Shown: positions 123-33,174 of the stretch, piece after piece
Layout: each line of letters begins with the position of its first letter
How positions within the stretch are numbered: position 1 is the first letter of the stretch
IMG/VR virus record: IMGVR_UViG_3300017724_000029
DNA length: 34,004 nucleotides
Source of the DNA: a virus
Strand: one strand, 5' to 3'
The notes under the pieces: generated by a model
Told to the model about the DNA's origin: nothing
The model's database searches: none
The model's input: the letters and a program-made list of their open reading frames with translations, nothing else
Translations under genes and position numbers: made by a program

Positions 123-3100
123 TTTCTTCTTCGGTTGCGCCTTCAGACACAGCCTCTGGTGCAACGCTCTGTAGCTCCTGAGCAACCATGCCGTACTTCT
201 GGTGTGAACCGTCAACCTTCCAGTCAAACGAACGTACTTGGATAGCGTCAATGTCGTCAGAAGCAGAAGGTGCGTCTACGATGTTTTCTTTAAGGCGTTG
301 GTCTGAAGAGGTGTTGTAGGCTGTTGCAGAGCCGTCTGTAGATATAGAGCCAACTTCACCGTTACCGTTAAAAAATAATTTGTGTTTTCTACCTGAGGTA
401 GATGTTGCACTAGAATATGTCTGATAATCAGATATGCCAGTGCCTTGAACCGATGCACTTGGCAATTCAGTACAGCTAACCAGCAAGTTGCCAGAGGCAT
501 CTATGCGTGCGGCTTCGGCAGAAACATTGCCTTCAGGATAAAACGCAATGAAGTTAGAACTAGCGGCTATAGTAGGGTTGCCGCCACCATAAGTACCTCC
601 CCAACTTATATTGCCTCCATCACCTAACTCAACACTGCCTGACAGGTAAAGGTCTTTAAAGCCATTGTTTGAATTACCTAAAGAAACTTTACCGTTAACT
701 TCGGTGCCAGACTCATTAGTTGGAGTTATGTGACGTAATGTATCTCCACCTGCTCCAGCTCCTGTTAAGCCTGCGCCTTGTCCAGAACGAGGGTCTAAAA
801 TTATGGTAGAAACAACGCCAGCACGAGATTGAATACTACCGACTTGGGTAGTGGCACCTTTCCTAAATATTAAGATGTCGCCATCAGAGTCTCTTCGGTC
901 AAAAATGCCAGACATTTGGTGAGAAGAAACTGCGTGGACATAACCTCCATTATGTAATGCAACTGATGTTGCGTCTCCTGATGAAGTGCCTGAGACGATT
1001 AAGTTGCCAGAAGTATCGATGCGCATGGCTTCTGACCAGCTGATAGCCGTTCCTGCCGTGCCTGATGCGGCTTGTTGGAATATCATCTCGTTAGCGTCAA
1101 AGAATAAACGAGACGTTCCAGCGGTGTATTTGTAGACTTCGCTGTTGTCTGTTTTAAACACGTAGTTTGTGCCAACCATTCCGTCAACACCACCAGCCGA
1201 ACGACCAACAAGGTTCATACCGCCTTGCTCTAAGTTTCTCCATGCACCTGAAGAATTTTGAGGCGTGACACCAATTCCAACATTCCCTGATGAGTCGATG
1301 CGCATGCGTTCTGTGTTGCCAATAAAATGACCAAACGAATTGTCTGAATGGTCAAACTTGATATAGCCTGCGTAGGAACCTCCTCCACTTGTTGCGTCAG
1401 CGAAGTTTAAGCCTCCATAATTAGAAGATCCTGTGTATATTGTGATGCCTTCATTGCCACTACCAGAGCCTACAACCAAATTACCAAGACCGCTGGATGA
1501 GTTTATTGTTGACGCAACGGTGTTGTTAATACCCACACTTCCGCTAGAATCGAGGCGCATGCGTTCTGTAACATCAGTACCGTTAGACGCACTAGTACCA
1601 AAGGTTAACGGCATACCATAAGAGCTAATCTGTGTGTTAGAAGTGCTATTAACAAGAAAATCAAGGCCGTTATACGGCCCGCTTCCTGTTGCAGAATTGT
1701 ATAGCTTTACAATATTTACAGCATTGTCTGAACCAATTAACGCAGGTCTTGAGGTTCCTACAACATGCAGTTTCTGTGCTGGGCTAGTGCCAATTCCAAC
1801 ATTCCCGTTTAAATCCAAAGTGAATTGAGGATTTGTTCTTGCGTTTATTCCGTTTGTTGCAATGTTAAGATTGCCTGTTGAAGAGCGATAGTCAAAAGTT
1901 GCTCCTCTTGCATCTCCTTCAGAAAGTGTAAGCTGTTCTTGTGAGCTTTTTACGGCTAATTTAACTACAGGCGAGCTAGTAGCAATACCAACATTACCAG
2001 AGCTGGCAAAAGTTACTTTAGGCGTAGTGTTAGCATTAACATAAAAGTTCAAATTGGGACTTGCGCCATTATTTGCACCTATATCCCAATAACTAGATGC
2101 CCCAGTGTTTTCGATAATTCTTAATGCTGAAGGTAAATTTGCAGATACAGTTCTTGAGTAGGCTGAGATTGTTGCTGTAGAGCTTGCCCCTGCGCCTATA
2201 GCGATAGTTTCATTAGAACTAGACCAACTGAACTTCGGAGTTGTCCCCGTATCTTCGTAGAAGCTGATGTCGTTGTTTGCTTCTATAACAGCGGCTTTAT
2301 TGTTTCCAGTATAAAACTCAATTTTTCCTGAACTTCCAGTGCCGCTATATGACTTAAGCCACATATTAGACGAATTGCCTACGCCTATAGTTCCTTCGTA
2401 TGAAGATCCATCATCGTAAAGTTTTAGTTTGTCGCCATTAGATGCAGTTGAAAACGCCCCTGGTTGTCCGTATGAGCCTGAGCCAGTTGCAGAAAAAAAC
2501 AACTCTCCGCTTGCACCATCAACAGTAAGCCCGTCCATCGTGGCTGTGCCACTAACGTCGATGCCTGTGGCGGTTGTGGCTAGTTTATTATTGCCTAAAT
2601 GTGAAAGTGTCACGCCGCCATCAGTAAGAATCTTGATGGCTTCATAATCACTATGTTCTGATTGGTCTACTGAATAAAAAGTAGCAATACCGTCAGCACC
2701 TGAATCACGTCCAGCCTCAATACGTAAACCACGGCCAGTAGTGTCGTAAGGAGTTGAGCCGAAGTATACATCTACTTGAGAATTGTTAGCATTTCCGGTG
2801 TTGTAAACGGTTAGCCCTTCCGCCGTAGCACCTGCGCTAGTAACTCGAACCGTCGTTACGCCATCAGAAACTATGCCGTCGCTGACCACTGTGCCAGTTA
2901 CGTCGATGCCTGTGGAGGTTGTGGCTAGTTTTTCAGAACCATCGTAGTAAAGCTTAAGCGCACCGTCAGTAGTAGCTAACAGTTTGTTTTCACTAAACGC
3001 CGCATTCATCAAAGCAATGTTGTTGGATGCCCCAATATATAAATCGCCAGTGCCTGCGTCAGTTATAAAGCTGTGGCTGCCTGAGTGGTATATTTGTAAG

Positions 3101-3345
3101 TCGCTACCCGCACCGAAAATAGCCTTGGAGTTATCAGGTAGTGTTAAGTTGCCGCTGGCCAAGCTAAGGGAAGTTAAGCCATCGACCGTACCTGAATTAA
3201 TATCAATGCCTGTGACTGCTGTAGTGCCGTCTAGCAGGTTGTCGATACTATCTAGGTTGGTGTTGAGTTTAGTTCCCCAAGTGTCTTCTGAGGCCCCTAC
3301 TTCTGGCTTAACCAGGCTGTACGTAGTCGTTGTAGTGTCAGCCAT
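31..3345 (-). CDS. Tail fibre protein with a C-terminal peptidase S74 intramolecular chaperone domain
   Basis: 1104-aa ORF. The N-terminus [30 protein letters not shown] is typical of phage fibre anchors. Six (M)R(I/L)D(S/T)SGN(V/L)GIG-like motifs are present. The last 92 aa ([10 protein letters not shown]...[16 protein letters not shown]...[20 protein letters not shown]) match the S74 auto-cleaving chaperone pattern. A GGGAGG Shine-Dalgarno lies 8 nt upstream of the ATG. Confidence 0.9.
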
Positions 3346-21704: not shown

Positions 21705-23807
21705 TCACATACCCATAGGATTTCTAGGTGCGTTTTGTAGCTGTTTAATTCGTTCTACATCTACGGCTGTGCCGTACTTACCGATAATTTCTGCCGCGCT
21801 AATCAATAGGTTTTGATCCAACTCATCGCGCTTCAAGTCGTCATTGGCCATAGCCTGCTGGGCATCCAGCATCATCTTCTGCTGGTCTAGCTGAGACTTG
21901 GCCATAACCTTCATTTGGTCTGACTGCATCTTAGCTTGCATCTTCATTTGCTCTGCCTGCAAATACGCCGCATTAGGATCGCCTTGTTGCTGCTGACCCT
22001 GCTGTTGCTGTTGCATCATCATCTGCTGTTCCATAGCTGGATTAAGAGGCATAAAGTAGCGCTCAGAGTTGCGGACGCCATTGATCGCCAGTATGTCAGA
22101 TAAAGTGTTTCTTATGTTTGACAGAGAAACCATGCCATTGCCAGGGCCGTACGATTGGAATATTTGGATTTGCATTTGTAACGCTTGGTTGAGTACAGCG
22201 ACCTTTTGGTCTTCTCTACCCGTGCCGAGACCCACGTTAATCGATACGTCCATGCCGGTATTCCATGAGCGGGGATCGACAGGCACATAGCTTTGGCCCT
22301 GTAACCGCATCATCTGCTCTTCATCGACGTTCTCTACCATGACCTTTAGCATAAGCCTAAACATCTGACGCATACCGCCTTCGGCAAGGTTTCGAGCCAT
22401 TACTTCAATCTGCGCCGCCTGAGCCTGCATAGTAGCCGCTACAGCAGTAGCCGTTGTGCTTTGCAGTGCATCAGGTGATAAGCCAGTAGAAGCTTTCGTG
22501 ACCCCAGTCTTATCTTCTACCTGCTGATCGAAATATTGTAAGGCAGAAAGGGTCTGACCTGCGACGAACGGGACAGCTTGTGGCTGAATAGCGCCTGACT
22601 GCTTAACGCGGATGATCCCGCCAATCTCATTGTTTAGTAGGTCATCGACGTTTACTGCTCCGTCTACAATCTCTACGCGAGGGTTGTTAGTCAGTGCGAC
22701 GTTGTCCAATACACCACGAAGCATAGCTGTAGCCGCGTCTTGGTCATTTAAAATAAGGTCAGCAACCGACCGGCCATAGAATGTATGCGGCTCAGGGTCT
22801 ACTTCAAATACAGCAAACGGGATTTGTCCGCATGGCTCATAGTCCAATAACTTGTACTGATTTCCACCTAATGTGACCTTGTGTAACTGCGCTACTCCAG
22901 TGCCGTTTACGTCAATCTTAATATATGCCTCTGTCACAGCCACTAGACGCATTGAGGGGTCTTGTACGTCCTCGTCAGAGTAATCCTCTTCGTACCCTCT
23001 ACGTTGGTACTCCTCAACCTCAGAGAACGTGTCAGAGTGTTGTAGGCCGCTTAGATCGTAGACTTCTTCGTAGTCATAACCCATAGCCACCAAATCGCCC
23101 ACACGCATTTCTGTACGATGAGCAACAACGTAATAATCATCGATAGAGCGTGAGTTACGATCAATGAAAAACTCTTCCGGAGGTACACTTTCAATGCACA
23201 TCTTGCCTTTTTCGACCGTGCGAGCAATCTTAAGGTCATGGCGCGGAGCTTCCATTTCCATGCCCATTTGGTCCATTTCCATGACCATTTGAGTTGTGTG
23301 CTCCAATACCTCAACGTCGTCTTCATTAACGAGTACAGAAAACTCCATGTCGTTAAGATCTTGGAAATCGTATATTTCTTGCTCTTGGTAAGTATCCCAG
23401 TAAACCTTGACGACACCGACCTTCTTAATGAGCGCATCGTGTATTGCATCGTTAAGCACCCTATAGCCGTTTAGCTCATTGAACTGATAGTGCATATACT
23501 TAGTGGCCTGCTCAGCCATCTGTACGTCTTCTTGGTTACGTGGCACAAACTCTACCGGCTTGTCAGTAGACAGAAATACACGCATCAAAGACGGCTTAAT
23601 AGCCCGTACGGTATCCCGTACCTTTGTAGAGACGACCTTAGACCGGCCATCTTCTTCACCGATATCGGTTTCACCATCAAAGTAACGCTGTGCCTTTATT
23701 CGGTCTTCAGCAATCTCAGATTCACAGAAATCAACGGCGTCTTGTATTGCCTCGCGTGCAATGCCCTCAATGTCCTGCTCTGTCATTGGTTTTAAATCCA
23801 TAGTCAT
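21705..23807 (-). CDS. Portal protein
   Basis: 700 aa. The N-terminal region AQRYFDGE...VVSTKVRDTVRAIKPSLMRVF is typical of portals. The C-terminus is a long Q/M-rich helical barrel-like tail. The gene is followed by scaffold and capsid. Confidence 0.85.
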   Translation of the reverse strand: MTMDLKPMTEQDIEGIAREAIQDAVDFCESEIAEDRIKAQRYFDGETDIGEEDGRSKVVSTKVRDTVRAIKPSLMRVFLSTDKPVEFVPRNQEDVQMAEQATKYMHYQFNELNGYRVLNDAIHDALIKKVGVVKVYWDTYQEQEIYDFQDLNDMEFSVLVNEDDVEVLEHTTQMVMEMDQMGMEMEAPRHDLKIARTVEKGKMCIESVPPEEFFIDRNSRSIDDYYVVAHRTEMRVGDLVAMGYDYEEVYDLSGLQHSDTFSEVEEYQRRGYEEDYSDEDVQDPSMRLVAVTEAYIKIDVNGTGVAQLHKVTLGGNQYKLLDYEPCGQIPFAVFEVDPEPHTFYGRSVADLILNDQDAATAMLRGVLDNVALTNNPRVEIVDGAVNVDDLLNNEIGGIIRVKQSGAIQPQAVPFVAGQTLSALQYFDQQVEDKTGVTKASTGLSPDALQSTTATAVAATMQAQAAQIEVMARNLAEGGMRQMFRLMLKVMVENVDEEQMMRLQGQSYVPVDPRSWNTGMDVSINVGLGTGREDQKVAVLNQALQMQIQIFQSYGPGNGMVSLSNIRNTLSDILAINGVRNSERYFMPLNPAMEQQMMMQQQQQGQQQQGDPNAAYLQAEQMKMQAKMQSDQMKVMAKSQLDQQKMMLDAQQAMANDDLKRDELDQNLLISAAEIIGKYGTAVDVERIKQLQNAPRNPMGM

Positions 23808-25387
23808 AAACCTTGCGCTCTTCCTGCTTGGAACAAGATGCTGCGTGTAAGAGGATCAGTAATCATATTCAAAAGGCCGGAAGGGATTTTTTGACCTGCC
23901 GCCCTCACCCCGCCTGCGATATCTTGCCCGACTCCTGCAACTTGACCTGCCCGATAAGCCGTCTCGCCAACTAATCTCGGAGAAGATCCGGCTGCCATTG
24001 TTGTTGCTACCGGCAAGTTACCAGATGCCGCCTGCTGTAGGGTAAGCGGTCCCATGCCAAATCTAGCAGCGCCCCTGGGCGCATACGGTGAAAGTGCTTG
24101 CCCAGCTAAACCAGCGCGGAATGGAACGCCACCAGAGGCTTGTAATTGATCTGCTAACCGTGTTCGTTGCCCATAGTTTGTTTGAACATTATCGCGCATA
24201 ACAGACTGCAATTTGCGTAACTGCGTATCCAAACTGGCCTTTGGATTAAGACTAAGCGTTCTTTCTATTTCGGTAATAAGTTCTGCGGCCTGACTATAAT
24301 CCTTCATCGCTTCTGAATAGACGGGAGCTTGCGCGCTAATTTCAGATCTAATTTGATCATAGATGCCTTGCACCGCCGCGCGAGCGTTGCGTTGCTCCAT
24401 TGGAATATTATCTATAATTGCGCCGACAGAACGCTTAAGTGCATCAACACCTTCTGCTGTGTGATAAAGGGCAGGGTCAAGTTGCGCCCATTCCATAATT
24501 TTGTCTTGAGCCTTTGCAATTGCTCTTGCTGCATTTTCGTCAGTAATTTGCCGACCAAATGTCGCGCGTTCCATCGCTTGTTCAGCAATGTCATATATAC
24601 GGCGCATCTGTATAGGCTCACGAGCCTTACCAACTTCCTGCATTTGTGCGCGATATCTTTGCATCATACGCTGACGCATCTGCGTTAATCCTTGCTTAGC
24701 GGCATCCACAACAACAAGAGGATCTCCCTGACCTCTCATCTGCGTTGTCAACATTTCGCCTCGCTCGCCACCCTCACGACCCGCCTCAAAGGCTTCTCGT
24801 ATTGGCGTTTCGCCAACTCCGGTCGTAACTCCTAAAGCAGATGCTGTGATTGGGCCAGCTTTACTGGCAACCTTTGCCGCTCCTTTCGCTGCTAATGCTG
24901 TCGGCTCTGTAACTGCCGCCGCTCGCGATAAGGTAGAGCCTACTCTACCCGGCACAGTCGCACCGCCGATACCGAATACTGTAGACACATCACCTAAAAA
25001 ACCGGCAGGGTCAGTCGCAAAAGTACGCTTTGCTTGCTCTACGCTTCCGTATCGATCAACGTACATCTGGCCAACTTGGCGTGCCAGCTCTCTACTTTCT
25101 GGGTCTTCACCAATAACTTGAACGACACTTTCTGGCAATGCCTCTTGCAGTGCTCCTGCACCTAAATCTAAAACTGTTTTTGCAGTATCTATTGGGCTGA
25201 GTGCTGCTCCGACAACATCAGAACCAAGCTGATACAAAGAGCTTGGCAAATTCATAAGCGCACTGCCGGCAACCTGCGCCGCAGTCATATTAGCTGGCTC
25301 TTCGCTTACGGCTACTTGAGGCTGAATTGTTGTATCGTCTGCTAGTAAGTTAGCGCTGAACTTTTTAATTATCTCCTCTTCTGTCAT
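23804..25387 (-). CDS. Presumed internal virion / ejection protein
   Basis: 527-aa Ala/Gly/Gln-rich ORF, ATGA-coupled to the portal gene. I recognise no enzymatic motif. Confidence 0.45.
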   Translation of the reverse strand: MTEEEIIKKFSANLLADDTTIQPQVAVSEEPANMTAAQVAGSALMNLPSSLYQLGSDVVGAALSPIDTAKTVLDLGAGALQEALPESVVQVIGEDPESRELARQVGQMYVDRYGSVEQAKRTFATDPAGFLGDVSTVFGIGGATVPGRVGSTLSRAAAVTEPTALAAKGAAKVASKAGPITASALGVTTGVGETPIREAFEAGREGGERGEMLTTQMRGQGDPLVVVDAAKQGLTQMRQRMMQRYRAQMQEVGKAREPIQMRRIYDIAEQAMERATFGRQITDENAARAIAKAQDKIMEWAQLDPALYHTAEGVDALKRSVGAIIDNIPMEQRNARAAVQGIYDQIRSEISAQAPVYSEAMKDYSQAAELITEIERTLSLNPKASLDTQLRKLQSVMRDNVQTNYGQRTRLADQLQASGGVPFRAGLAGQALSPYAPRGAARFGMGPLTLQQAASGNLPVATTMAAGSSPRLVGETAYRAGQVAGVGQDIAGGVRAAGQKIPSGLLNMITDPLTRSILFQAGRAQGL

Positions 25388-26772
25388 TACTTCTGCCCTC
25401 TGTTAAATTCATCTGCCATTTCATTGGCTGTTTCAACATTTTTAGCTGTGACAGATTTTCCAGATGGAAACACAACCGCATTACCGACGACAGTTGCCGA
25501 AATGCCTAATCGTCCTGCGCCTATACCAGAGGCCACACGTAACGCATTAATAACCGTTTCTCGATTCCTTCGTTTTTGCGCTATGACCACAGGAGAGTCA
25601 CCGGGAACTGGGAAATACTGCTTTTCAGCGCTATCAAACTCACTATCAGCAATTGCGGCACCAGATTCTCGTCTAAGGTTTGCGTTAATAAAGTCTCTCT
25701 TTGCCTGCTCATACCTTTTGTACTCTTCCGGCATTGCGTAACGCGCTAACCCAGTAGGATCTTTTTCTAGCATAGCATTACTAAAGCTTGTGCCCTGCTG
25801 CTCTAACAAGCCTTGGTCTGTTGGTTGTAATAAGATTCTGTGCGACTCTAATACGCGGCTATAAAATCCCGTCGCATTTGATTCTCCTTGAGTCAAAGGC
25901 TTACTAGCTGGGTCAGAAGCAGGATATCGGAGCCTCATAAATTCTTCAAAGCTACCTACGAAGCCTTCGTTTTCTTTGGCGTACTTATATTCTTTAATCA
26001 ATGAAGTGTCTGCCGGCTTATCGGGAGCACCCTCAATACCAATAACCTCGCCTGTAACTGCATTCAACTTGTACAAACGACCCTCTGGCAAGTTAGAGCC
26101 AAACATTTGATTAACTTCTTTGCCTGATTTAATGTCAAAATTTTCTATGCCAGACGCAAGTTGCGCAATTTCTTGTGGTGTTTTTTTAGGATAAGCGGCC
26201 TGTAAGGTGGCTATTTTTTGTTGCAGAGTTGTAGGTTGCCGAGTTTTGGCTTCATAGTGTTGCTGTAAAGCAAACTTTGCTAAATCAGGCTGCTGCTGAA
26301 TAAGATCAGCAAGACTTTCACTACCTTCTGCGCGCAGAAACGCCGCTGTTCGATTTGCTTGTTGTGCCTGTTGTCTGCCTGTTTGCACGCGCTCCGATCT
26401 TGCTTGCACTGACTTAACTAAATTAGAATCAGGCTGTAAGCGCATAGAGTTAAGGGCAGTTACAATCTGAGCGTTACGGACAGGGTCTTGCAGCGCATCC
26501 AAAGCACCTCGCCCTAACCGGCTTAACAATCCAGCTTGCTCTGGTTTGGCAGTAGTAGATCCGCCGCTCACAGATCTGGCCGGCTGCATGGCTTGTGCGC
26601 GAGCCGCCTCAAAGTTTTGCATTTGCTGTTGAGCTTGAGGCGTCATAGCTACCCTTGAGTTTGGTGCGCGACGTTGTTGTATCTGCTCCATCATTTGCAT
26701 CATTCTGCGCTCTTCATCATCACGCGCTGATGCTTTTGGTGGTACAGGCTGACCAGTCATCATCCCCGACAT
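25387..26772 (-). CDS. Presumed internal virion / ejection protein
   Basis: 461-aa ORF with a Q/M-rich N-terminus. It is TAATG-coupled. Confidence 0.45.
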   Translation of the reverse strand: MSGMMTGQPVPPKASARDDEERRMMQMMEQIQQRRAPNSRVAMTPQAQQQMQNFEAARAQAMQPARSVSGGSTTAKPEQAGLLSRLGRGALDALQDPVRNAQIVTALNSMRLQPDSNLVKSVQARSERVQTGRQQAQQANRTAAFLRAEGSESLADLIQQQPDLAKFALQQHYEAKTRQPTTLQQKIATLQAAYPKKTPQEIAQLASGIENFDIKSGKEVNQMFGSNLPEGRLYKLNAVTGEVIGIEGAPDKPADTSLIKEYKYAKENEGFVGSFEEFMRLRYPASDPASKPLTQGESNATGFYSRVLESHRILLQPTDQGLLEQQGTSFSNAMLEKDPTGLARYAMPEEYKRYEQAKRDFINANLRRESGAAIADSEFDSAEKQYFPVPGDSPVVIAQKRRNRETVINALRVASGIGAGRLGISATVVGNAVVFPSGKSVTAKNVETANEMADEFNRGQK

Positions 26773-26783
26773 AATTCTATCCT

Positions 26784-27104
26784 TTAAGCCATGCCTAAAT
26801 ATTTCATCATTTTAAAAATCATTTCTTTTTTATTTGCGCCGTCACCATTATCTGGTTGAGCGCCCATAATGCCTTGGCCGGAAACCATAGCAGGAATCTG
26901 CGGCTGTTGTAGTAAGCCTCCGCTAAACCCTAAAGCCTGTGGTTGTTGAACAGCAAACGGTTGAGCAATTTGTGCAGACGCAGCACCAACACTCTGAGCT
27001 TTTTGGCGAATTAATGCTTTTTTCTTTTCGTCTTCCATCAGCAAATCAAGCAAGCCTTTAAAAGCTTGTTTTTGTTGCGGAGCCTGTGAGTCTGTTGCAA
27101 CCAT
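26784..27104 (-). CDS. Small Q-rich virion-module protein
   Basis: 106-aa ORF inside the internal-protein block. Confidence 0.45.
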   Translation of the reverse strand: MVATDSQAPQQKQAFKGLLDLLMEDEKKKALIRQKAQSVGAASAQIAQPFAVQQPQALGFSGGLLQQPQIPAMVSGQGIMGAQPDNGDGANKKEMIFKMMKYLGMA

Positions 27105-27108
27105 ATCT

Positions 27109-28230
27109 TTATCCCATCAGTGACGCGCCAAGAGTCAGGTAATCGAACAACCCTGGCTGCTTAGATGTAGTGCTGGATTGCGGTGTTGGTGTTGCACCCA
27201 ATGCCTGAGCGTAGTAACCAAGCGCTTGTGCTGGATAGTTACGGAAGCCTTCAAACTGCTGACGTGCCGCATTCATGACTTGCTGTTGCAGTTGCTGCTG
27301 TAAAGCGCCCTGCTCCGCCATCTGCTGTTGTACTGTCTGACCCATACCGAAGCCTAAGTTAGCAAGCGATCCTAGCTGAGCCGCAGCGCCTAATCTCTGT
27401 TGTGATCCTGCCTGACGTGCCGCTTGGTTAGCAAGCTGTGCCTGCATACTTTGACCAAGACCAAACTCTTGAGCGCGTTGACCCATGCCGGCTTGAGCTT
27501 GTGCGGCTTGTAGAGCCTGACCAAAGCCTTGCTGTCTTAGCGCAGCAGATGTGCTTGCTCCTTGCTCTAATGCCTGACGCCCTAGCTCTGCTTGTTGAAT
27601 AGCTTCTCGAGAACCACCAAAAGCACGAGCGCCTTGAAACTGCGCCGCCAGTTGATTGGCCTGCATTTGGCGTTGACGCTCAATATCTCCCATTGCGCCT
27701 TGAACCACTTGCTGCTCATAGGGATTCTGGAATGCCTGTATTTGACTTGCAATGTCAGGAGCGCGGTATCCCATGCCCCTAACCTGCGACGGCATAAACC
27801 CTAGCTCTCGTTGTGCGCCACCCATTGCTTGGCCGATGCCGGTAGAGGCTTGCTGAAAAATGTCACCTTGTGGGGCGGCAGCAGGGGCCATAGGCTGGGG
27901 AGCAATTGGCTGTGGTATTTGGTTGGGCAAAGGCTTGACTGGCTGTATTGGAACGCCTGTAGGTGCCTTTATTTTTGTGGTGCCGGGTGCGCCTACATTC
28001 ATTGGTCCTCCGGCAGGATTAAACCCTCCGGTAGCCCCTGCAAATCCACCGCCTTGCATTGGTGGTTGTGTTGGTGCGGCTCCAGTTCCAAAAAGACCAA
28101 ATCCACTGTGCAGGCCTTGGTTTTGTGGTGCCAACGAAAAACTGAAGCCTCCGCGCCCTGAAGGGGAGTTTGGCGAAACATTGCCCTGTTGCATGGGCAT
28201 CGTTGCTGGTCCTGTTCCTGCTCCTGCCAT
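27109..28230 (-). CDS. Gly/Gln/Ala-rich presumed internal virion protein with an FG/GLFG-type N-terminal region
   Basis: 373 aa. The N-terminal 120 aa are low complexity (GGFSFS, SGFGLFGTG, GGGFAGATGGFNPAGGP, then a Pro/Gln stretch). The C-terminal part, NPYEQQVV...ARAFGGSREAIQQAELGRQ..., looks like a conserved domain. Confidence 0.5.
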   Translation of the reverse strand: MAGAGTGPATMPMQQGNVSPNSPSGRGGFSFSLAPQNQGLHSGFGLFGTGAAPTQPPMQGGGFAGATGGFNPAGGPMNVGAPGTTKIKAPTGVPIQPVKPLPNQIPQPIAPQPMAPAAAPQGDIFQQASTGIGQAMGGAQRELGFMPSQVRGMGYRAPDIASQIQAFQNPYEQQVVQGAMGDIERQRQMQANQLAAQFQGARAFGGSREAIQQAELGRQALEQGASTSAALRQQGFGQALQAAQAQAGMGQRAQEFGLGQSMQAQLANQAARQAGSQQRLGAAAQLGSLANLGFGMGQTVQQQMAEQGALQQQLQQQVMNAARQQFEGFRNYPAQALGYYAQALGATPTPQSSTTSKQPGLFDYLTLGASLMG

Positions 28231-28240
28231 GTTATTTACC

Positions 28241-30667
28241 TCAACCTTTTATCTTGATTGGACCGCGTACAGCGCCCACGTTAATTGGACCGCCAGCAGG
28301 GTCAAAACCACCTGTTACCTGCGGGTTGTATGATGTCTGCAATCCTACTAATTGGTTTTGTAGAGCTGCTATCTGGCCTGCCAGCCCTGACGGGTCAAAC
28401 TGAGGCACTTGACCTATGGCTGATTGATTAGCCGCTATTTGTTGTTGGAGTCCTGTAGGATCGAACCCTGGCGCCTGCTGAAGCGCGGTAATTTGCGACT
28501 GCAAGCCAGAAGGGTCAAACCCTGGCGTTTGTTGCAATGAGCTTATTTGTGATTGTAAGCCCGATGGATCAAACGGCTGAAGGCCAGAAAACTGTTGTTG
28601 CAATCCGCTTATCTGGTTTTGCAGTCCAGACGAATCGAACCCTGGCGTAGACTCTAATGCTCCGAGCCGGCCTAAAATGCCTGATGCGTCAAAGCCAGGC
28701 TGTTGTTGCAAAGAGGATATCTGTGACTGCAAGCCCGATGGGTCGAAGCCGGGTTGTTGTTGCAATGCAGAAATTTGGTTTTGCAATCCAGTTGGATCAA
28801 AGCCAGGACGTGTCTGTAAAGAACCTATTTGCTCTTGCAAACCACCTATCTGTCCCATGAGGCCACTAGGATCAAACGGAGTCATTCCTTCAAATTGGTT
28901 TTGTAGGCCCGAAATTTGCTGTTGCAAACCACTAGGATCAAACTGTTGCATACCGCCAATCTGGCCTTCTAAGCCGGATAAGCGAGACTGTAAGGCGCTT
29001 GGATCAAACGTATCTCTGCCACTTAAATCTCTTAGTTGAGCTTGGATATCACTTGGATCAAAAGGCTGAAATTGGCTGAACTGACCTTCAAGCCCGGCGA
29101 TTCTTTGCTGGATACCCGATGGATCAAATGCACTGCGTCCTTGCAAATCTTGTATTTGAGCTTGCAGATTTGAAGGATCAAACTGCGTCATTCCACCTAT
29201 TTGGCCTTGCAAGCCGGCAATTTGGTTTTGCAAAGATGAAGGATCAAATCCTTCTACATTACGCAAATCAGATATCTGGTTTTGCAGGTTAGTAGGATCA
29301 AACGGTGAGAAGCTTTCTACTCTGCCCCTTATATCTCCAAGCTGCTCGTAAATAGCAGTTGGGTCGAACTGATCTTGACCGCGAAGCTCGGACAACTGGT
29401 TTTGTATGTCACTTGGATCAAAGGGAGTCATGCCCCCTAGCCGTCCTTCGATACCTGCAATTTGCTGTTGAATTGATGATGGATCAAATCTTTCTATCCC
29501 TGTGAATTGGTTTTGTAATCCACCAAACTGATCCCGCAAACCTTCCAGTTGCCCCGCTAGGCCGCTGGGGTCAAATGGCGTCATGCTTCCCAATCGACCT
29601 TCAATGCCAGAAATTTGGTTTTGTAATGCGGATGGGTCAAACCTTTCGATGTTACCAAACTGGTCTTGCAAGCCGCCAAACTGATTCTGCAAACCCGCAA
29701 TTTGTCCCGCTAGACCACTTGGATCAAATTGTTGAATGCCACCGACCTGCCCCTCAAGTCCAGCAAGTCGAGCGGTCAAGTCAGTAGGATCAAATGCTTC
29801 GCGTCCACGCAATTCAGAAAGCTGGTTTTGCAAGTCACTTGGGTCGAATGGTTGGAATTGACTAAATTGACCTTCTAAACCAGCGAGCCTTTGCTGCATA
29901 CCGGACGGATCAAACTGCTCTCGCCCTTGTAGAGCTGTTAATTGGTTCTGTAAGTCAGAGGGGTCAAATTGTTGGAATCCCGATATTTGAGATTCTAAGT
30001 CTTGGAATCTATCGTCGTACTGTGGGTTGTAGATGTTTCCCTGATCAATGAATCCTCGGTTCTCTTCTATTGATCGTTGCATTTCCGCCATCTGAGCCGC
30101 AATGCTAGTTGGGTCGCTTGGATCTCCACCCATCGAGAACTGGTCTCGGCGGATATCGTACATAGGATCAGTAAAATCAAGCGATGGCACATCAAATAAA
30201 GGAGTTTCCGTACCGAACGCCACGTTTTCATCTGTGCCAGGCATATAGCCGGCATCCTGTCCCGGCACTGGCATGAAGTAGCCATCAAAATTTGGAACCA
30301 TCGTTGGCAAGGAAGTGTATTGACTAAATTGCGCGGGGCTTTTTGTTTGCAGGTCTTTTAGTTGTTGCTCGAATAGCTCACCAGAGCCATACCCTTGCAT
30401 GCCGCGATATAAAACATCTGGTGTTGGTATAGATGCTGTGGCGTCAAACCCCGGCCCTGCTAAACCGAAAGCTTGCCCAGCAGTTCCAGCACTTTGCATC
30501 GCTTGTGTTTGCAAAGGAGAAAAAGCCGCAACCTCTGGCCCATAATAGGGAAGGTATCCCATGCGAGCCGTGGCTTGAGCACGCCCCAAATTCTGTCTTG
30601 CAGCGTCTTCAATAAACCTAGGTATTTCTACCTGTGTAGTCTGACTGCCGCCTTTTCCACCTGACAT
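28241..30667 (-). CDS. FDPS-repeat protein (presumed internal/ejection protein or length-determining fibre)
   Basis: 808 aa. It has a 233-aa head, then 26 consecutive FDP(S/T)-initiated units (aa 234-787), and ends FDPAGGPINVGAVRGPIKIKG. Confidence 0.55.
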   Translation of the reverse strand: MSGGKGGSQTTQVEIPRFIEDAARQNLGRAQATARMGYLPYYGPEVAAFSPLQTQAMQSAGTAGQAFGLAGPGFDATASIPTPDVLYRGMQGYGSGELFEQQLKDLQTKSPAQFSQYTSLPTMVPNFDGYFMPVPGQDAGYMPGTDENVAFGTETPLFDVPSLDFTDPMYDIRRDQFSMGGDPSDPTSIAAQMAEMQRSIEENRGFIDQGNIYNPQYDDRFQDLESQISGFQQFDPSDLQNQLTALQGREQFDPSGMQQRLAGLEGQFSQFQPFDPSDLQNQLSELRGREAFDPTDLTARLAGLEGQVGGIQQFDPSGLAGQIAGLQNQFGGLQDQFGNIERFDPSALQNQISGIEGRLGSMTPFDPSGLAGQLEGLRDQFGGLQNQFTGIERFDPSSIQQQIAGIEGRLGGMTPFDPSDIQNQLSELRGQDQFDPTAIYEQLGDIRGRVESFSPFDPTNLQNQISDLRNVEGFDPSSLQNQIAGLQGQIGGMTQFDPSNLQAQIQDLQGRSAFDPSGIQQRIAGLEGQFSQFQPFDPSDIQAQLRDLSGRDTFDPSALQSRLSGLEGQIGGMQQFDPSGLQQQISGLQNQFEGMTPFDPSGLMGQIGGLQEQIGSLQTRPGFDPTGLQNQISALQQQPGFDPSGLQSQISSLQQQPGFDASGILGRLGALESTPGFDSSGLQNQISGLQQQFSGLQPFDPSGLQSQISSLQQTPGFDPSGLQSQITALQQAPGFDPTGLQQQIAANQSAIGQVPQFDPSGLAGQIAALQNQLVGLQTSYNPQVTGGFDPAGGPINVGAVRGPIKIKG

Positions 30668-30668
30668 A

Positions 30669-31037
30669 TCAAAGTTCCTTTGCTAATACTGTGTGCGCTA
30701 CTTCGTAGCCCTTATCCTTCAGCACCTTAGCCCAGCCTTTGCGTCCTGCGATGGTCATTGCAGTGCAACCGTTCATTCGTGCAAACTCAGCCGCAGAACT
30801 ATCCATCTCTACGATCTGCTCTAACTCTCCACCAGCAAGAAATATGTGCAATACCTTCTTGCCTGGGTACTTAATGATCTCCGTTACCGCGCACCCTTTT
30901 GGCGCTGGCCAGAACTGCATACGGCCTTCAGCTATGGCTTCAACGACGTCAGTAATAGTATGGGTGCCGCCCGATCTTTCTAATGCTGCTTGTAACCAAG
31001 GCTCACAGCGCACCAATTCTTCTACTATAGTCGCCAA
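30669..31037 (-). CDS. Conserved hypothetical protein
   Basis: 122-aa ORF. The C-terminal ...FARMNGCTAMTIAGRKGWAKVLKDKGY resembles a recurring phage family of unknown role. Confidence 0.5.
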   Translation of the reverse strand: MATIVEELVRCEPWLQAALERSGGTHTITDVVEAIAEGRMQFWPAPKGCAVTEIIKYPGKKVLHIFLAGGELEQIVEMDSSAAEFARMNGCTAMTIAGRKGWAKVLKDKGYEVAHTVLAKEL

Positions 31038-31042
31038 TTATA

Positions 31043-31702
31043 TCACCTATGCACTCTAATAATCGTTATCGTTGTTGCAGGGCAGGCCGGCTCATCTGAT
31101 ATCCCATTAGCAGCAAATGCTTTTAGTGACCCATTAATGCTGTCACACGCGGTAGCGACTTCTAAATAGTCGTTTGCAGTGGCGTGAATAATGACAGCTC
31201 GGCTTACGACCGTTGTTTCAGCATTTCCATGCAATGCGGCCCGCAATGTACTTCCAGTCATGTTCGTGCCGTTTTTCTTCGGCCAAAATACAAACTCTAC
31301 TGTGCTCGCTGAAGAACTAAATATTTGAGCCGAAAAGCTAACTAAGTAATACCCGGTCTCACTGAAAGTGATCCGCGTGCCATTGATTGGCAGCCCTTCG
31401 TTGTTAGAGTCTGCCGTGTAACTAAGTAAGTACGTGGTGTTGGCTGCTGTGTAAGCGTAATCAGACGTAATAACAAAATCGCCATGCCCATCGGCTAAAA
31501 CAATTTGCTTGAACTCGCCGCCACTTGATACTACGGGGTAGCCTGTAGAATCCCATAGAATGATTCCGTCATCTTTTGCGCTGTCCCCAGTTTCAAAGAA
31601 TGCAAGATGTGACCTTACTCGGCGTAGATAATCATTAAGGCGTTCGCCCCAAGGCTTCCACTCAGGGCCGCCAGGCGGCGGAGGGAATGCCCCTATGCTC
31701 AC
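31043..31702 (-). CDS. Possible receptor-binding protein with a C1q/TNF-like jelly-roll C-terminus
   Basis: 219 aa. GYYLVSFSAQIFSSS...VEFVFWPKKNGTNM...NDYLEV follows the strand pattern typical of C1q-like domains. This is inference from pattern only. Confidence 0.35.
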   Translation of the reverse strand: MSIGAFPPPPGGPEWKPWGERLNDYLRRVRSHLAFFETGDSAKDDGIILWDSTGYPVVSSGGEFKQIVLADGHGDFVITSDYAYTAANTTYLLSYTADSNNEGLPINGTRITFSETGYYLVSFSAQIFSSSASTVEFVFWPKKNGTNMTGSTLRAALHGNAETTVVSRAVIIHATANDYLEVATACDSINGSLKAFAANGISDEPACPATTITIIRVHR

Positions 31703-33174
31703 CGTCTTCCCCCAGTTTTAACATCCAGCCTCATGTTCCCTACGCGGAAGTCAGTTAGATCAGAGCCTGTAAGCCTCATACGAAGCTGTCTACCGGTAAA
31801 TCTTACGCTAGTAGGGCTTGCCATAGTAAATGGCCCGTGTGAGCTTTCTGTGGCGTTAGGATAAAACCTTGTCTTAAAAGTAGCCGTAACTTGGCCCTGT
31901 GTTTTTTCATCAGGGATAAGCTCAGTAACTCGTACCACGTTCTCGCCTTCACCTACGAATATCGGACCACTCTCTACAAAGATGTCATCACCGTCATGCG
32001 ATAAAGACACTTCGTGATCAAAGATATTTGCACTTGGATCGAACCACATTGGGTATCGGAACACACCTCGGTCAACTGCTGCTGTACGAGCTAAGTTACC
32101 AATCATCCAATAATTTTGCTGGTAGTTGTAAGAGACGTAGCGGTTGTTTTCTTGCGAGTCCCGAGACGGGTAAAACCACCACACCTCTCCGTATTGCGAG
32201 TTATGAACTGCGCATACCTTTGATGCTTGCGAGTTGTTAATATCATCAAACACGTAATCAGCAACGTCACAAGGAAGCTCTTGCACCGATGAACCGTTAT
32301 AAAGAAAGAACGACTTTTGTCCCATCCAAAACGCGCCCTCATCGACTGCTACGGCAGACTGCCGAGAAATGCCGCCACAGGCAGTCCCAGCACGCTCAAA
32401 ACCGTAGACCACGGGCGGCCCTGAGTAGGATGCTACGTGAGCATCAGTCGTTGTAATAATTAACGCACGCCCCCGAATACGAACGCCCTGCATGATCTTG
32501 CCAGACGTTTGTAGCTCCAAGTCACCGGCTTCGTTAGTGGCGGCAGGTGTCCATGTGTCAATATCTTCTCGATCGGACCATTGGACCTTACGTGGGTTGC
32601 CACCAGCACCAAGGCAGAATACAAACCTTTCCTCAGTCACCATGATAGATGTATTACCAGTTGGCGCGTTTGACACCACAGCGCCATCAGTAGCGTTATT
32701 TAACTGCCACTGGTAAAGCTTGCCGTCATCACTAGAACACGCAACTAAGTATTCACCCCAGTTATCAAGCGACCAAGTCGTACATTCTTGAGGAATGCCA
32801 GCTATACGAGCTGTACCAAAGTATTCTTGGCCATAGAAGTTGCCGCCATAACCTAAGTTTTCGATTGCGTTTACATTACCGCTAGTTAACCCGGCAGGCG
32901 TAATGTCAATAATCGTGTTGGAATCTATAGACGTGAACAAGCCATCCGCCGTGCCAAAAGCATAATGGATGTTCCCAGAGTTATCCAGCCACGTAACAGC
33001 GCCACGTGGTGGTTGTGCTGCCGCCGTGGCTTTCCTAGTGTCCCAACCGCCAATCGGTCGTAGAGAGTTGTTTCGCCATCTAATTAGGCTCGCATCTCTC
33101 CATCGACCGGCAGACTCTAAGTCTGTTCCGTTCCTTACAACCCCTGGCGGGATATCTAGCGTTATGAGAGGCAT
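31699..33174 (-). CDS. Tail structural protein candidate (beta-rich, nozzle or tubular type)
   Basis: 491-aa ORF rich in W/G/T/S and coupled to both neighbours. The call rests on position within the tail module only. Confidence 0.35.
   Translation of the reverse strand: MPLITLDIPPGVVRNGTDLESAGRWRDASLIRWRNNSLRPIGGWDTRKATAAAQPPRGAVTWLDNSGNIHYAFGTADGLFTSIDSNTIIDITPAGLTSGNVNAIENLGYGGNFYGQEYFGTARIAGIPQECTTWSLDNWGEYLVACSSDDGKLYQWQLNNATDGAVVSNAPTGNTSIMVTEERFVFCLGAGGNPRKVQWSDREDIDTWTPAATNEAGDLELQTSGKIMQGVRIRGRALIITTTDAHVASYSGPPVVYGFERAGTACGGISRQSAVAVDEGAFWMGQKSFFLYNGSSVQELPCDVADYVFDDINNSQASKVCAVHNSQYGEVWWFYPSRDSQENNRYVSYNYQQNYWMIGNLARTAAVDRGVFRYPMWFDPSANIFDHEVSLSHDGDDIFVESGPIFVGEGENVVRVTELIPDEKTQGQVTATFKTRFYPNATESSHGPFTMASPTSVRFTGRQLRMRLTGSDLTDFRVGNMRLDVKTGGRR

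What the first reader, a model, noticed from the sequence alone, without database searches (positions are those of the whole stretch)
28306..30020. An 808-aa virion-module protein is built from 26 FDP(S/T) units in an 18/22-residue alternation
I counted residues directly. Positions 234-787 are 26 back-to-back units, each beginning FDPS or FDPT (two variants begin FDAS and FDSS). Each start is followed by x(L/I)QxQ(I/L)xxLxG. The unit lengths are 18,22,18,22,29,22,29,22,18,22,18,22,18,22,18,22,22,25,18,18,18,22,18,18,22,31, which sum to 554. The first 16 units therefore form a 40-residue (or 51-residue) super-repeat, which decays into 18-mers. On the plus strand this shows as GG(A/G)TC(A/G)AA recurring every 54-66 nt. 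The genome has no tape-measure gene, and this protein sits among Q/G-rich presumed internal proteins. A regular helical repeat of fixed length could act as a ruler or as an extensible trans-envelope conduit during ejection. I do not recognise the repeat as a named family.
Basis: partly seen in the sequence, partly recalled or inferred. Interest (0 to 1): 0.75.

Follow-up and report, generated by a model that had tools for sequence, protein, structure and literature searches.

The report
Variable helix-repeat array on phage ejection protein
An 808-residue protein of a small marine short-tailed phage is the front half of a split DNA-ejection protein, extended by 26 copies of an undescribed short helix-forming repeat whose copy number ranges from about 15 to 39 in close relatives, so part of the DNA-delivery machinery may be adjustable in length.

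Summary
ORF 28241..30667 (-) encodes 808 aa.

The array is real. The longest exact DNA repeat in the gene is 16 nt, conserved residues use mixed codons, and the identical protein sits on an independent assembly.

AlphaFold2 gives one short helix per unit and no confident tertiary fold. No Pfam, NCBIfam, PHROG or PDB family describes the repeat. It is rare: 69 clusters at E<=1e-10 among 1.84 billion.

Residues 1-~120 match the N-terminus of the phrog_4287 'DNA ejection protein' family. This family includes phiM5 gp27, found in virions by mass spectrometry, and matches part of LUZ24 gp53 (annotated as a phage particle protein). The rest of that protein is encoded by the next gene (373 aa). Gene order places the pair where T7 gp14 and P22 gp7 lie.

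Relatives with 84-95% identical flanking DNA carry about 15-39 units, differing by whole-unit insertions and deletions. More distant orthologues carry none.

Best reading: a packaged, ejected protein with a length-variable stalk of capped helices. A fixed 'ruler' is not supported. Function is inferred, not shown.

The parts
28241..30667 (-). CDS of the 808-aa protein (w808), stop codon included
   Evidence: ORF listing. The identical product is found on an independent Logan contig.
30293..30667 (-). Conserved N-terminal domain (N-domain), aa 1-125. It corresponds to the N-terminal part of the phrog_4287 'DNA ejection protein' family.
   Evidence: PHROG match of aa 3-106 to profile positions 5-114, E 5.8e-4. 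Match to Octadecabacter phage DB2 gp17, 1e-22. A profile HMM of the N-domain hits phiM5 gp27 aa 6-69, 1.3e-13. 592 relatives in IMG/VR. AlphaFold2 pLDDT 73-84.
29969..30292 (-). Linker, aa 126-233. Mostly low-confidence or disordered, with two predicted helices (186-207 and 215-229) leading into the array.
   Evidence: AlphaFold2 pLDDT 28-37 for aa 121-180.
28877..29968 (-). FDPS array, proximal part: units 1-17 (aa 234-597). Units 1-16 alternate 18 (or 29) with 22, giving a 40- or 51-residue super-repeat; unit 17 is a second consecutive 22-mer. Charged residues are present.
28307..28876 (-). FDPS array, distal part: units 18-26 (aa 598-787). Mostly uncharged, Q-rich 18-mers ending in PG, plus 22-, 25- and 31-mers.
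   Evidence: pLDDT is 64-78 here. PHROG 'fibritin neck whisker' local match at aa 646-782.
28244..28306 (-). C-terminal tail, aa 788-808 (FDPAGGPINVGAVRGPIKIKG). The stretch from the start of the last unit to the C-terminus is 52 residues in the window and in relatives L011-L014.
   Evidence: tail of 52 aa from the last unit start in WIN and L011-L014.
27109..28230 (-). 373-aa protein (w373): the second half (D2) of the split ejection protein. It has a G/P/Q-rich disordered N-terminus followed by long helices. It has its own GAGG ribosome-binding site 10 nt after the w808 stop.
   Evidence: DB2 gp18, 7e-27. phiM5 gp27 aa 130-355, 2e-10. D2 profile HMM to phiM5 gp27 aa 133-364, 1.7e-29. AlphaFold2. 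No frameshift fusion is possible. D2 lies in the ORF after the N-domain gene in 69 of 69 loci where it was found.
30669..31037 (-). 122-aa protein (w122), homologous to the IVP-A-position proteins that are annotated acetyltransferase-like in relatives.
   Evidence: DB2 gp16 'acetyltransferase', 5e-32. phiM5 gp26, 1.6e-19. LUZ24 gp54, 8e-7. No acetyltransferase Pfam match for w122 itself.
31043..31702 (-). 219-aa protein (w219) at the position of LUZ24 gp55. Function unassigned; possibly the tail needle.
   Evidence: Synteny only, plus a weak BclA_C match, E 0.0034, below the Pfam cut-off.
31699..33174 (-). 491-aa virion structural protein (w491), probably the tail hub (tubular tail B).
   Evidence: phrog_3287, 3.7e-85. 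phiM5 gp25, in the virion proteome, 1.4e-85. LUZ24 gp56, 1e-13.
26784..27104 (-). 106-aa Q-rich protein (w106) at the position of LUZ24 gp52 and Pa223 gp55.
   Evidence: Synteny only.
25387..26772 (-). 461-aa presumed internal virion protein (w461). Partial match to DB2 gp19, which carries a cell-wall hydrolase domain.
   Evidence: tblastn, 2e-7. Annotation of DB2 gp19.
23804..25387 (-). 527-aa internal virion protein (w527).
   Evidence: phiM5 gp31 'internal virion protein', detected in the particle proteome, 34% identity, 1.7e-55.
21705..23807 (-). Portal protein.
   Evidence: PF23899 SU10_portal, 6e-201.

Best explanation
The 808-aa protein (w808) is a virion-internal ejection protein. It is the N-terminal half of a gene that in phiM5 (gp27) is a single protein. 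That protein has an N-terminal domain (N-domain), a long-helix domain (D2) and an S74 chaperone domain. In this marine lineage the gene is split: the N-domain protein is followed by a separate D2 protein (w373, 373 aa). The pair sits after the tail hub and an IVP-A-like gene, where T7 gp14 and P22 gp7 lie.

A 554-residue array has been added to the N-domain. It consists of 26 short helices that each fold independently:
- F-D-P-S-x-L reads as a hydrophobic staple plus an N-terminal helix cap.
- L6, I10, L13 (and F17, F20 in longer units) form a heptad-type stripe.
- Gly15 often caps the C-terminal end of the helix.

Unit lengths are restricted to 18, 22, 25 and 29, which equal 7+11, 11+11, 7+7+11 and 7+11+11. 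This keeps the hydrophobic stripe in phase at 3.63 residues per turn along the whole array.

Inferred mechanism: several copies are packaged in the head. Because the array has no long-range fold, it can be threaded through the narrow tail channel helix by helix. Outside, it re-associates side by side, with itself or with D2, into an elongated, unsupercoiled, segmented helical stalk. That stalk would extend or tether the first-ejected part of the DNA conduit. Its length is set by a copy number that changes easily through in-register gain and loss of units.

Shown: the repeat anatomy, predicted helicity, homology and synteny of the N-domain and D2, the split, copy-number variation, and purifying selection on the motif.
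Inferred: presence in the virion, ejection, oligomerisation, and any role in spanning the envelope.
For: Anatomy.

Helices: AlphaFold2 gives one helix of 11-19 residues per unit, starting at about unit position 3, with loops of 6-8 residues.

Phase coherence:
- The dominant hydrophobic period is 3.635 residues.
- Unit phases stay within about 40 degrees over units 1-17.
- Changing linker lengths by 1-2 residues abolishes the signal (0 of 200 trials reach the observed value).
- The same holds in arrays L011-L020 and P0001.
- Unit lengths in 12 orthologous arrays: 18 x109, 22 x150, 25 x8, 29 x12, 20 x3.

Selection on the protein motif: mixed codons, including both TCN and AGY for Ser4.

Identity:
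- phrog_4287 'DNA ejection protein' matches the w808 N-domain (5.8e-4), phiM5 gp27 over its full length (6.5e-91), DB2 gp18 (7.4e-20) and LUZ24 gp53 (2e-10).
- Profile HMMs of the N-domain and of D2 hit phiM5 gp27 at 1.3e-13 and 1.7e-29.
- phiM5 gp25, gp27, gp28, gp29 and gp31 are annotated 'detected in phage particle proteome'.
- LUZ24 gp53 is annotated 'phage particle protein'.
- Pa223 gp56 was found in virions by mass spectrometry but is invisible in the cryo-EM map. It was proposed to be the gp14-like outer-membrane channel (bioRxiv 10.1101/2025.06.11.659172). I equate it with LUZ24 gp53 from gene order only.

Synteny: hub, then IVP-A-like, then this pair, then a hydrolase-type internal protein, then a large internal protein. 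This matches the general podovirus order tubular tail B, IVP-A, IVP-B, IVP-C, IVP-D (PMC4819975).

Fusion evidence: 51 proteins carry an FDPS array and D2 in one chain, and 14 carry the N-domain plus an FDPS array.

Copy number: 15-39 units in relatives with 84-95% identical flanks. Shared units are mostly 100% identical, yet 13 units differ between the window and L011, in 5 blocks.
Against: - There is no direct evidence that this protein is in virions or is ejected.
- The link to T7 gp14 and P22 gp7 rests on gene order and on one preprint's bioinformatic assignment. No sequence or fold match to any solved ejection protein was obtained: Foldseek against the PDB gave nothing for either model, and phmmer and hmmsearch against PDB sequences gave nothing.
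- The AlphaFold2 models have low confidence (pTM 0.24 for both), and the oligomeric state could not be modelled.
- Many D2 orthologues end in a Peptidase_S74 intramolecular chaperone domain, which is typical of external trimeric fibres.
- Predicted loops of 6-8 residues between helices mean that phase coherence in the sequence need not become phase coherence in three dimensions.
- FDPS arrays in other protein architectures are not phase-coherent.
- The array is absent from most orthologues and is replaced there by unrelated extensions, so it is not needed for the core function.
Confidence: 0.5

Rival explanations
1. It is an external fibre, a whisker or tail-fibre-like trimeric segmented coiled coil as in T4 fibritin, anchored by the N-terminal domain.
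For: - phrog_1056 'fibritin neck whisker' matches aa 646-782, E 5.8e-14.
- Orthologues of the partner D2 protein often end in the S74 intramolecular chaperone domain of trimeric fibres.
- Depositors annotate phiM5 gp27 and DB2 gp18 as tailspike or chaperone.
- Each unit has a heptad-type stripe.
Against: - The gene sits in the internal-virion-protein block, not with the fibre gene (1104 aa, 31..3345).
- In Pa223 all external tail parts were modelled. The protein at the position of LUZ24 gp53 (Pa223 gp56) was detected by mass spectrometry but not seen in the map.
- There is no foldon or receptor-binding domain, only a 21-residue C-terminal tail.
- The match to solved fibritin is not significant (1aa0, E 0.76).
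- The PHROG match is the kind that coiled-coil composition produces.
Confidence: 0.12
2. The array is a tolerated low-complexity filler. It is an easily expanding spacer with no length-dependent function, one of many interchangeable C-terminal extensions of the N-domain protein.
For: - Copy number varies from 15 to 39 among close relatives, and the array is absent from orthologues with 63% identity or less.
- Other orthologues carry G/S-rich tails, Ala/Lys-rich tails, other repeats or nothing.
- The predicted structure has low confidence.
Against: - The motif is strongly conserved at protein level despite saturated synonymous change.
- Unit lengths are confined to four values that preserve helical phase: 279 of 288 intervals.
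- Jittering linker lengths destroys the periodicity.
- The same unit recurs in at least three other protein architectures.
Confidence: 0.2
3. It is a monomeric alpha-solenoid: each 18+22 pair forms a helical hairpin of 40 residues, similar in length to a HEAT repeat, and the hairpins stack into a superhelix.
For: A 40-residue super-repeat of two helices in units 1-16, with one helix per unit in the model.
Against: - AlphaFold2 gives no confident packing (pTM 0.24, loops with pLDDT below 50).
- There are no Foldseek matches to any solenoid in the PDB.
- Each helix has only 3-5 hydrophobic residues, too few for a solenoid core.
- The distal half is made of single 18-mers, not pairs.
Confidence: 0.05
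4. It is a membrane-active belt of proline-punctuated amphipathic helices, comparable to the 11/22-residue repeats of apolipoproteins, that perturbs the outer membrane during entry.
For: Proline at every unit start, 22-residue units, and a periodicity of 3.63 residues kept in phase. The comparison with apolipoprotein A-I is from my own knowledge.
Against: - The hydrophobic face is narrow (positions 6, 10, 13, plus 17 and 20 in longer units).
- There is no lysine at all and little arginine to sit at the membrane interface.
- Gln (18%) and Gly (14%) dominate.
Confidence: 0.08
5. The array length is an assembly artefact, a collapsed or expanded tandem repeat.
For: Tandem repeats can mislead short-read assemblers.
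Against: - The longest exact repeat is 16 nt here and at most 35 nt in relatives.
- Tandem Repeats Finder detects only 2.4 copies at 73% match.
- An identical protein lies on an independent Logan contig.
Confidence: 0.01

Closest known systems
phrog_4287 'DNA ejection protein' family: Sinorhizobium phage phiM5 gp27 (full-length match) and Octadecabacter phage DB2 gp17+gp18; Pseudomonas phage LUZ24 gp53 matches part of the profile. Pa223 gp56 is equated with LUZ24 gp53 by gene order only.
   Same: - Homologous N-terminal domain, and a homologous D2 domain in the next gene.
- Same place in the gene order: after the hub and the IVP-A-like gene, before the hydrolase-bearing internal protein.
- phiM5 gp27 is annotated as detected in the phage particle proteome and LUZ24 gp53 as a phage particle protein. 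Pa223 gp56, at the same gene position, was found in virions by mass spectrometry.
   Different: - Here the gene is split.
- The N-terminal half carries a 554-residue repeat array that none of these characterised phages has.
- The S74 domain present in phiM5 gp27 and DB2 gp18 is missing from w373.
T7 gp14 and P22 gp7 (IVP-B, the outer-membrane pore of the DNA ejectosome)
   Same: - Gene position directly after the IVP-A-like gene.
- Helical, and followed by larger helical internal proteins, one lineage of which carries a cell-wall hydrolase (PMC4819975; PMC8954989).
   Different: - No sequence or fold similarity was demonstrated here.
- gp14-like proteins are the most size-constant ejection proteins, at 181-240 aa (PMC8954989). 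The N-domain proteins of this lineage range from 116 to 1066 aa.
T4 fibritin (gp wac), a segmented trimeric coiled coil
   Same: Short coiled-coil segments interrupted by loops. There is a local PHROG profile match.
   Different: - No foldon.
- Different genomic context.
- The segments here are only 1.5-2.5 heptads long, and each starts with a proline-containing cap.
- The match to the solved fibritin fragment is not significant.
E. coli TolA domain II (intragenic tandem repeats of a periplasm-spanning helix)
   Same: A helical, envelope-related protein whose in-frame repeat copy number varies between strains (PMC3477136, listed).
   Different: Unrelated sequence, and a cellular protein rather than a viral one. 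This is an analogy only.
Tape-measure proteins of long-tailed phages
   Same: A helical, repeat-prone virion protein whose length could set a physical distance.
   Different: - This is a podovirus with no tail tube to measure.
- There is no sequence relation.
- Copy number is not fixed within the lineage.

Membership tests
phrog_4287 'DNA ejection protein' (phiM5 gp27 type; LUZ24 gp53 partial match) | Homologous N-terminal domain of about 110 residues | tested here: met
   PHROG match of aa 3-106 to profile positions 5-114, E 5.8e-4. N-domain profile HMM to phiM5 gp27 aa 6-69, 1.3e-13. DB2 gp17, 1e-22.
phrog_4287 'DNA ejection protein' (phiM5 gp27 type; LUZ24 gp53 partial match) | Long-helix D2 domain in the same polypeptide | tested here: not met
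   D2 is encoded by the next ORF (w373). That ORF has its own ribosome-binding site, and a stop codon lies in its frame 6 codons upstream. The split state was found in 69 of 69 related loci with a D2 hit. w808 is therefore a fragment-plus-array derivative, not a full member.
phrog_4287 'DNA ejection protein' (phiM5 gp27 type; LUZ24 gp53 partial match) | Gene position between the hub plus IVP-A-like gene and the hydrolase-type and large internal virion proteins | tested here: met
phrog_4287 'DNA ejection protein' (phiM5 gp27 type; LUZ24 gp53 partial match) | Physically present in virions | not testable with these tools
   Recorded only for relatives: phiM5 gp27 ('detected in phage particle proteome') and LUZ24 gp53 ('phage particle protein'), and for Pa223 gp56 at the same gene position, found by mass spectrometry.
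T7 gp14 / P22 gp7 (IVP-B outer-membrane pore) | Detectable sequence or fold similarity to a solved or curated IVP-B | tested here: inconclusive
   No Pfam or PDB sequence hit. Foldseek against the PDB gave nothing for either model, but both models have low confidence.
T7 gp14 / P22 gp7 (IVP-B outer-membrane pore) | Gene immediately downstream of IVP-A and upstream of IVP-C and IVP-D | tested here: met
   w122 is homologous to DB2 gp16 'acetyltransferase', phiM5 gp26 and LUZ24 gp54. The general order is taken from PMC4819975.
T7 gp14 / P22 gp7 (IVP-B outer-membrane pore) | Membrane-spanning helices and pore formation | not tested
   No transmembrane prediction was run. The array itself has no hydrophobic segment long enough to span a membrane.
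T4 fibritin-type whisker | C-terminal foldon and significant similarity to fibritin | tested here: not met
   phmmer against 1aa0 gave E 0.76. The PHROG match is local and restricted to the repeats. The C-terminus is a 21-residue Gly/Pro/Lys tail.
Alpha-solenoid repeats (HEAT, TPR, ARM) | Helical hairpins packed into a confident stacked fold, or a family profile match | tested here: not met
   pTM 0.24 with disordered loops. No Pfam repeat family match. No Foldseek match.
Tape-measure protein | Encoded in a long-tail module, with length proportional to tail length | tested here: not met
   The genome has podovirus organisation, with an SU10-type portal, adaptor-like proteins and a fibre, and no tail tube or sheath genes.

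The most novel reading that the evidence does not exclude
The FDPS array is a length-tunable, self-zipping helical stalk on the first-ejected protein of these marine podoviruses. Gain and loss of 18- and 22-residue units (7+11 and 11+11, which keep the hydrophobic seam straight) would adjust how far the ejectosome reaches across cell envelopes of different thickness. On this reading, the 15-39 unit polymorphism among near-identical phages is host adaptation, not drift.
Probability: 0.15. Interest if true: 0.75.

Novelty: new variant of a known kind. Interest (0 to 1): 0.55.

Why it matters
Ejection proteins of short-tailed phages are poorly understood. The gp14-position protein is thought to be the most constant in size. 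Here its counterpart is split, and the N-terminal half carries a previously undescribed repeat with three notable properties:
- It is strongly selected at protein level.
- Its unit lengths are confined to values that preserve helical phase.
- Its copy number differs more than two-fold between phages that are otherwise nearly identical.

If the array is part of the trans-envelope conduit, this gives a natural series of length variants with which to test how podoviruses bridge the periplasm. More generally, the N-terminal domain appears to be a handle that carries interchangeable C-terminal extensions into the virion: repeat arrays, histone-like basic tails, or a Cys-rich domain.

Tried and rejected
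- **Pfam hits of w808** (Phage_scaffold, HemX, Wbp11, Baculo_PEP_C and others). None has a domain-level stretch. They are summed weak matches to Q/L-rich helices, so I rejected them as family assignments.
- **NCBIfam**: nothing relevant.
- **Foldseek on the 808-aa model.** Against the PDB there were no hits with E<1. Against BFVD only two uncharacterised N-domain orthologues appeared.
- **Foldseek on the w373 model** against the PDB: zero hits.
- **PDB sequence searches** with w808, the N-domain profile and phiM5 gp27: nothing significant.
- **Megablast of 14 kb** against cultured phages: no match.
- **tblastn against cultured phages** is blunted by the low-complexity filter. It found only DB2, phiM5 and a Vibrio phage coiled-coil protein.
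- **DNA-level tandem-repeat detection** sees only 2.4 copies.
- **In-register alignment of a 160-residue array segment** from database homologues, intended for a second structure prediction. Too few homologues share the 18/22 pattern, so I used the second prediction on w373 instead.
- **Programmed frameshift fusing w808 to w373**: rejected.
- **Pfam scan for an acetyltransferase fold in w122**: negative. That assignment rests on homologues' annotations.
- **Literature search for the motif strings**: nothing relevant.
- **The phiM5 structure paper** (PubMed id 28842338) is not in the library.
Full report
**1.

ORF 28241..30667 on the minus strand encodes 808 residues. A script found 26 consecutive units beginning FD[PAS][ST] between residues 234 and 787, which is window 28307..29968. 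A 27th, degenerate FDPA start lies at residue 788.

Conservation across the 26 units:
- F1, D2, S/T4, L/I/M6, Q/R9 and I/L10 are present in 26 of 26 units.
- P3 is present in 24, L/I13 in 25 and Q7 in 19.
- G15 is present in only 13.

The plus-strand signature GGRTCRAA occurs 25 times in 28299-29968. The whole window has 34 matches against 3.5 expected. The array region contains 18% Gln, 14% Gly and no Lys.

**2. The array is not an artefact**

- Tandem Repeats Finder sees only 2.4 copies at 73% match.
- The longest exact repeat within the gene is 16 nt.
- Unit cores are on average 55% identical in DNA and 55% identical in protein.
- Identical residues share a codon in only 41% of comparisons, and Ser4 uses both TCN and AGY codons.

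These are old, diverged units held together by selection on the protein. They are not recent duplications that an assembler could miscount. The identical 808-residue product, with the same neighbours, is on an independent Logan contig from run SRR10522336. The window also has a 122-nt terminal overlap, so it is a complete genome of about 33.9 kb.

**3. Structure of the unit**

Reading the motif against established helix-capping rules (my own knowledge):
- F-D-P-S-x-L is a hydrophobic staple (F before the cap, L at N4) around an Asp N-cap, with Pro at N1.
- Gly15 is a typical C-terminal cap.
- L6, I10, L13 (and F17, F20 in the longer units) are spaced 4,3,4,3, as heptad d,a,d,a,d positions.

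AlphaFold2, with a 38-sequence alignment, predicts one helix of 11-19 residues per unit, starting at about unit position 3, with loops of 6-8 residues. Confidence is low (mean pLDDT 58, pTM 0.24) and there is no tertiary packing. Foldseek finds no solved relative. Among predicted viral structures it finds only two uncharacterised orthologues of the N-terminal domain.

**4. A constraint on unit length**

The strongest hydrophobic periodicity over all 554 residues is 3.635 residues. Unit phases stay within about 40 degrees across units 1-17. Changing each linker by one or two residues destroys the signal: 0 of 200 trials reach the observed power.

In twelve orthologous arrays the intervals are 18 (109 times), 22 (150), 25 (8), 29 (12) and 20 (3), plus a few double units. 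The four allowed lengths are 7+11, 11+11, 7+7+11 and 7+11+11. These are whole numbers of turns at 40/11 residues per turn.

The same coherence is present in every array attached to the N-terminal domain (L011-L020 and P0001). It is absent from FDPS arrays in other architectures, which also use 20- and 24-residue units. I read this as a hint that the helices line up along one straight seam. The predicted loops make that an inference only.

**5. What the protein is**

Family assignment:
- Residues 3-106 match the N-terminal 110 positions of phrog_4287 'DNA ejection protein' (E 5.8e-4).
- phiM5 gp27 matches that profile end to end (6.5e-91).
- DB2 gp18 matches the remainder (7.4e-20).
- LUZ24 gp53 matches part of it (2e-10).

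A profile of the N-terminal domain (N-domain) hits phiM5 gp27 residues 6-69 (1.3e-13). A profile of the neighbouring 373-residue protein (w373, 27109..28230) hits residues 133-364 of the same protein (1.7e-29). phiM5 gp27 therefore equals the N-domain plus the long-helix domain of w373 (D2) plus an S74 chaperone domain.

In the window the gene is split. w808 stops 10 nt before the w373 start codon, which has its own GAGG site. A stop codon lies in the w373 frame six codons upstream, so a frameshift fusion is excluded. In IMG/VR, D2 lies in the ORF after the N-domain gene in all 69 loci where it was found.

Correspondence of gene order. Window ORFs are named w plus their length in residues; coordinates are in the parts list. 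Sources.

| Window | LUZ24 | phiM5 | DB2 | Role or note |
|---|---|---|---|---|
| w491 | gp56 | gp25 | gp13 | tail hub |
| w219 | gp55 | - | - | unassigned |
| w122 | gp54 | gp26 | gp16 | IVP-A-like |
| w808 + w373 | gp53 | gp27 | gp17 + gp18 | split ejection protein |
| w106 | gp52 | - | - | small Q-rich protein |
| w461 | - | - | gp19 | DB2 gp19 carries a cell-wall hydrolase domain |
| w527 | - | gp31 | - | internal virion protein |
| portal | - | - | - | follows w527 |

phiM5 gp25, gp27, gp28, gp29 and gp31 are annotated as detected in the particle proteome.

In Pa223, a relative of LUZ24, gp56 was found in virions by mass spectrometry but is invisible in the map. The authors proposed it as the gp14-like outer-membrane channel (bioRxiv 10.1101/2025.06.11.659172). 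I equate it with LUZ24 gp53 from gene order only.

The general podovirus order is tubular tail B, IVP-A (acetyltransferase-like), IVP-B, IVP-C, IVP-D (PMC4819975; phiGT1 annotation). This puts w808 and w373 at the IVP-B position. No direct sequence or fold similarity to T7 gp14 or P22 gp7 was obtained. The w373 model has long helices at 170-201, 209-253 and 261-327, a pTM of 0.24 and no Foldseek hit.

**6. Distribution of the repeat**

A search of 1.84 billion representative proteins with the array found 239 hits at E<=1e-3, 69 at E<=1e-10 and 13 at E<=1e-30. Among 259 retrieved proteins, those with at least four units fall into three groups:
- 73 carry an array only.
- 51 carry an array N-terminal to a D2 domain in one chain.
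- 14 carry the N-domain followed by an array.

About half of all arrays are therefore covalently joined to one or the other half of this ejection protein. Other carriers sit in virion modules too. P0002 lies between the lysis genes and the scaffold and capsid genes. P0066 has an N-terminal glycine-zipper-like hydrophobic stretch and neighbours a 2131-residue LPD38 protein. The motif strings appear in no relevant paper in the searched library.

**7. Copy number is hypervariable**

| N-domain identity to the window | Loci | Protein length | Units |
|---|---|---|---|
| 95-98% | L011-L015 (5 loci) | 650-1066 aa | 39, 34, 25, 30, 15 |
| 65-70% | L016-L021 (6 loci) | 539-879 aa | 14-32 |
| 63% or less | 69 loci | 116-635 aa | none |

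The window has 26 units. L021 is cut off by the contig end, so its 14 units are a lower bound.

Flanking DNA of the first group is 84-95% identical to the window, and L013 is collinear over 12.3 kb. A unit-level alignment shows that shared units are mostly 100% identical between the window and L011, yet L011 has 13 extra units in five blocks. None of these arrays has an internal exact repeat longer than 35 nt.

The array therefore changes by in-register gain and loss of whole units faster than by substitution. That argues against a fixed ruler. It is compatible with an adjustable spacer or with a tolerated filler.

**8. Interpretation**

I commit to the following. w808 is a packaged, ejected protein. 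Its N-domain is the part that belongs to the ejection machinery and partners with w373. The array is a chain of independently capped helices. Having no long-range fold, it could pass the tail channel and then re-associate into an elongated, segmented, unsupercoiled helical stalk of variable length.

- **Shown:** the anatomy, the selection on the motif, the length constraint, the homology, the split and the copy-number variation.
- **Inferred:** virion location, ejection, oligomerisation and any envelope-spanning role.

Rivals, in order of my confidence:
1. A tolerated filler.
2. An external fibritin-like fibre, supported by the PHROG match and by S74 domains on D2 orthologues, but contradicted by gene position and by the Pa223 data.
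3. A membrane-active amphipathic belt.
4. A monomeric solenoid.
5. An assembly artefact, which is excluded.

**9. Verdict**

The finding is real and the repeat is undescribed. The protein class, a podovirus ejection or internal virion protein, is known, so this is a new variant of a known kind. Interest is moderate to good. It offers a natural length series in a component usually regarded as size-constant, but no function is demonstrated.

Noticed in passing
window 1-122 and 33883-34004: The first 122 nt are identical to the last 122 nt, and IMG/VR contig L014 bridges the end to the start. The window is a complete circular or terminally redundant podovirus genome of about 33.9 kb.
   Followed up: partly
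window 27109-28230 (-) and homologues P0268-P0288: The partner protein family (D2) is itself repeat-prone. Relatives carry 1-7 tandem copies of a 22-residue unit 'EFGxGQxxQAQLANQAARQRFG', 'GYAGDV' repeats of about 11-14 residues, and hypervariable G/P/M-rich N-termini. Many end in a Peptidase_S74 chaperone domain. The window's copy ends exactly where that domain would begin (...LFDYLTLGASLMG).
   Followed up: partly
IMG/VR loci L022-L090 (N-domain orthologues): The C-terminal extension after the conserved N-terminal domain is interchangeable. Variants seen: nothing (116-160 aa in total); G/S-rich tails; Ala/Lys-rich tails resembling histone H1 (L030, L034, L037, L048); a Cys-containing domain 'CVVATHAVSSGAFTPSMKREAVVWCMN..KWWGEAIRRGYRHLG' (L054, L084, P0090, P0103); or 'PDLSGYATTxDLxxAIxGLP' repeats of about 21 residues (P0041, P0050, P0099, L058). 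This suggests the N-terminal domain is a handle that carries variable cargo into the virion.
   Followed up: partly
window 5770-7674 (-): A 634-aa ORF directly downstream of the large terminase subunit has no PHROG match. It holds five isolated FDP motifs (GGRTCRAA hits at 7007-7533) but no array. Its function is unknown.
   Followed up: partly
L005 3915-8596 and L006 2235-6916: Related phage contigs carry CsgF- and CsgG-like (curli secretion), FecR-like and CHASE2-guanylate cyclase genes between the portal and the lysis genes. These are unusual accessory genes for a podovirus of about 36 kb.
   Followed up: no
window 31043-31702 (-): The 219-aa protein between the hub and the IVP-A-like gene has a weak BclA_C (C1q/TNF-like trimer) match, E 0.0034, below the Pfam cut-off. 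It sits at the position of LUZ24 gp55 and may be the tail needle.
   Followed up: no
window 28677-29039 (+): A 120-aa Cys/Pro/Lys-rich ORF on the opposite strand lies inside the array. It is the mirror image of the repeat and is almost certainly not a gene.
   Followed up: no
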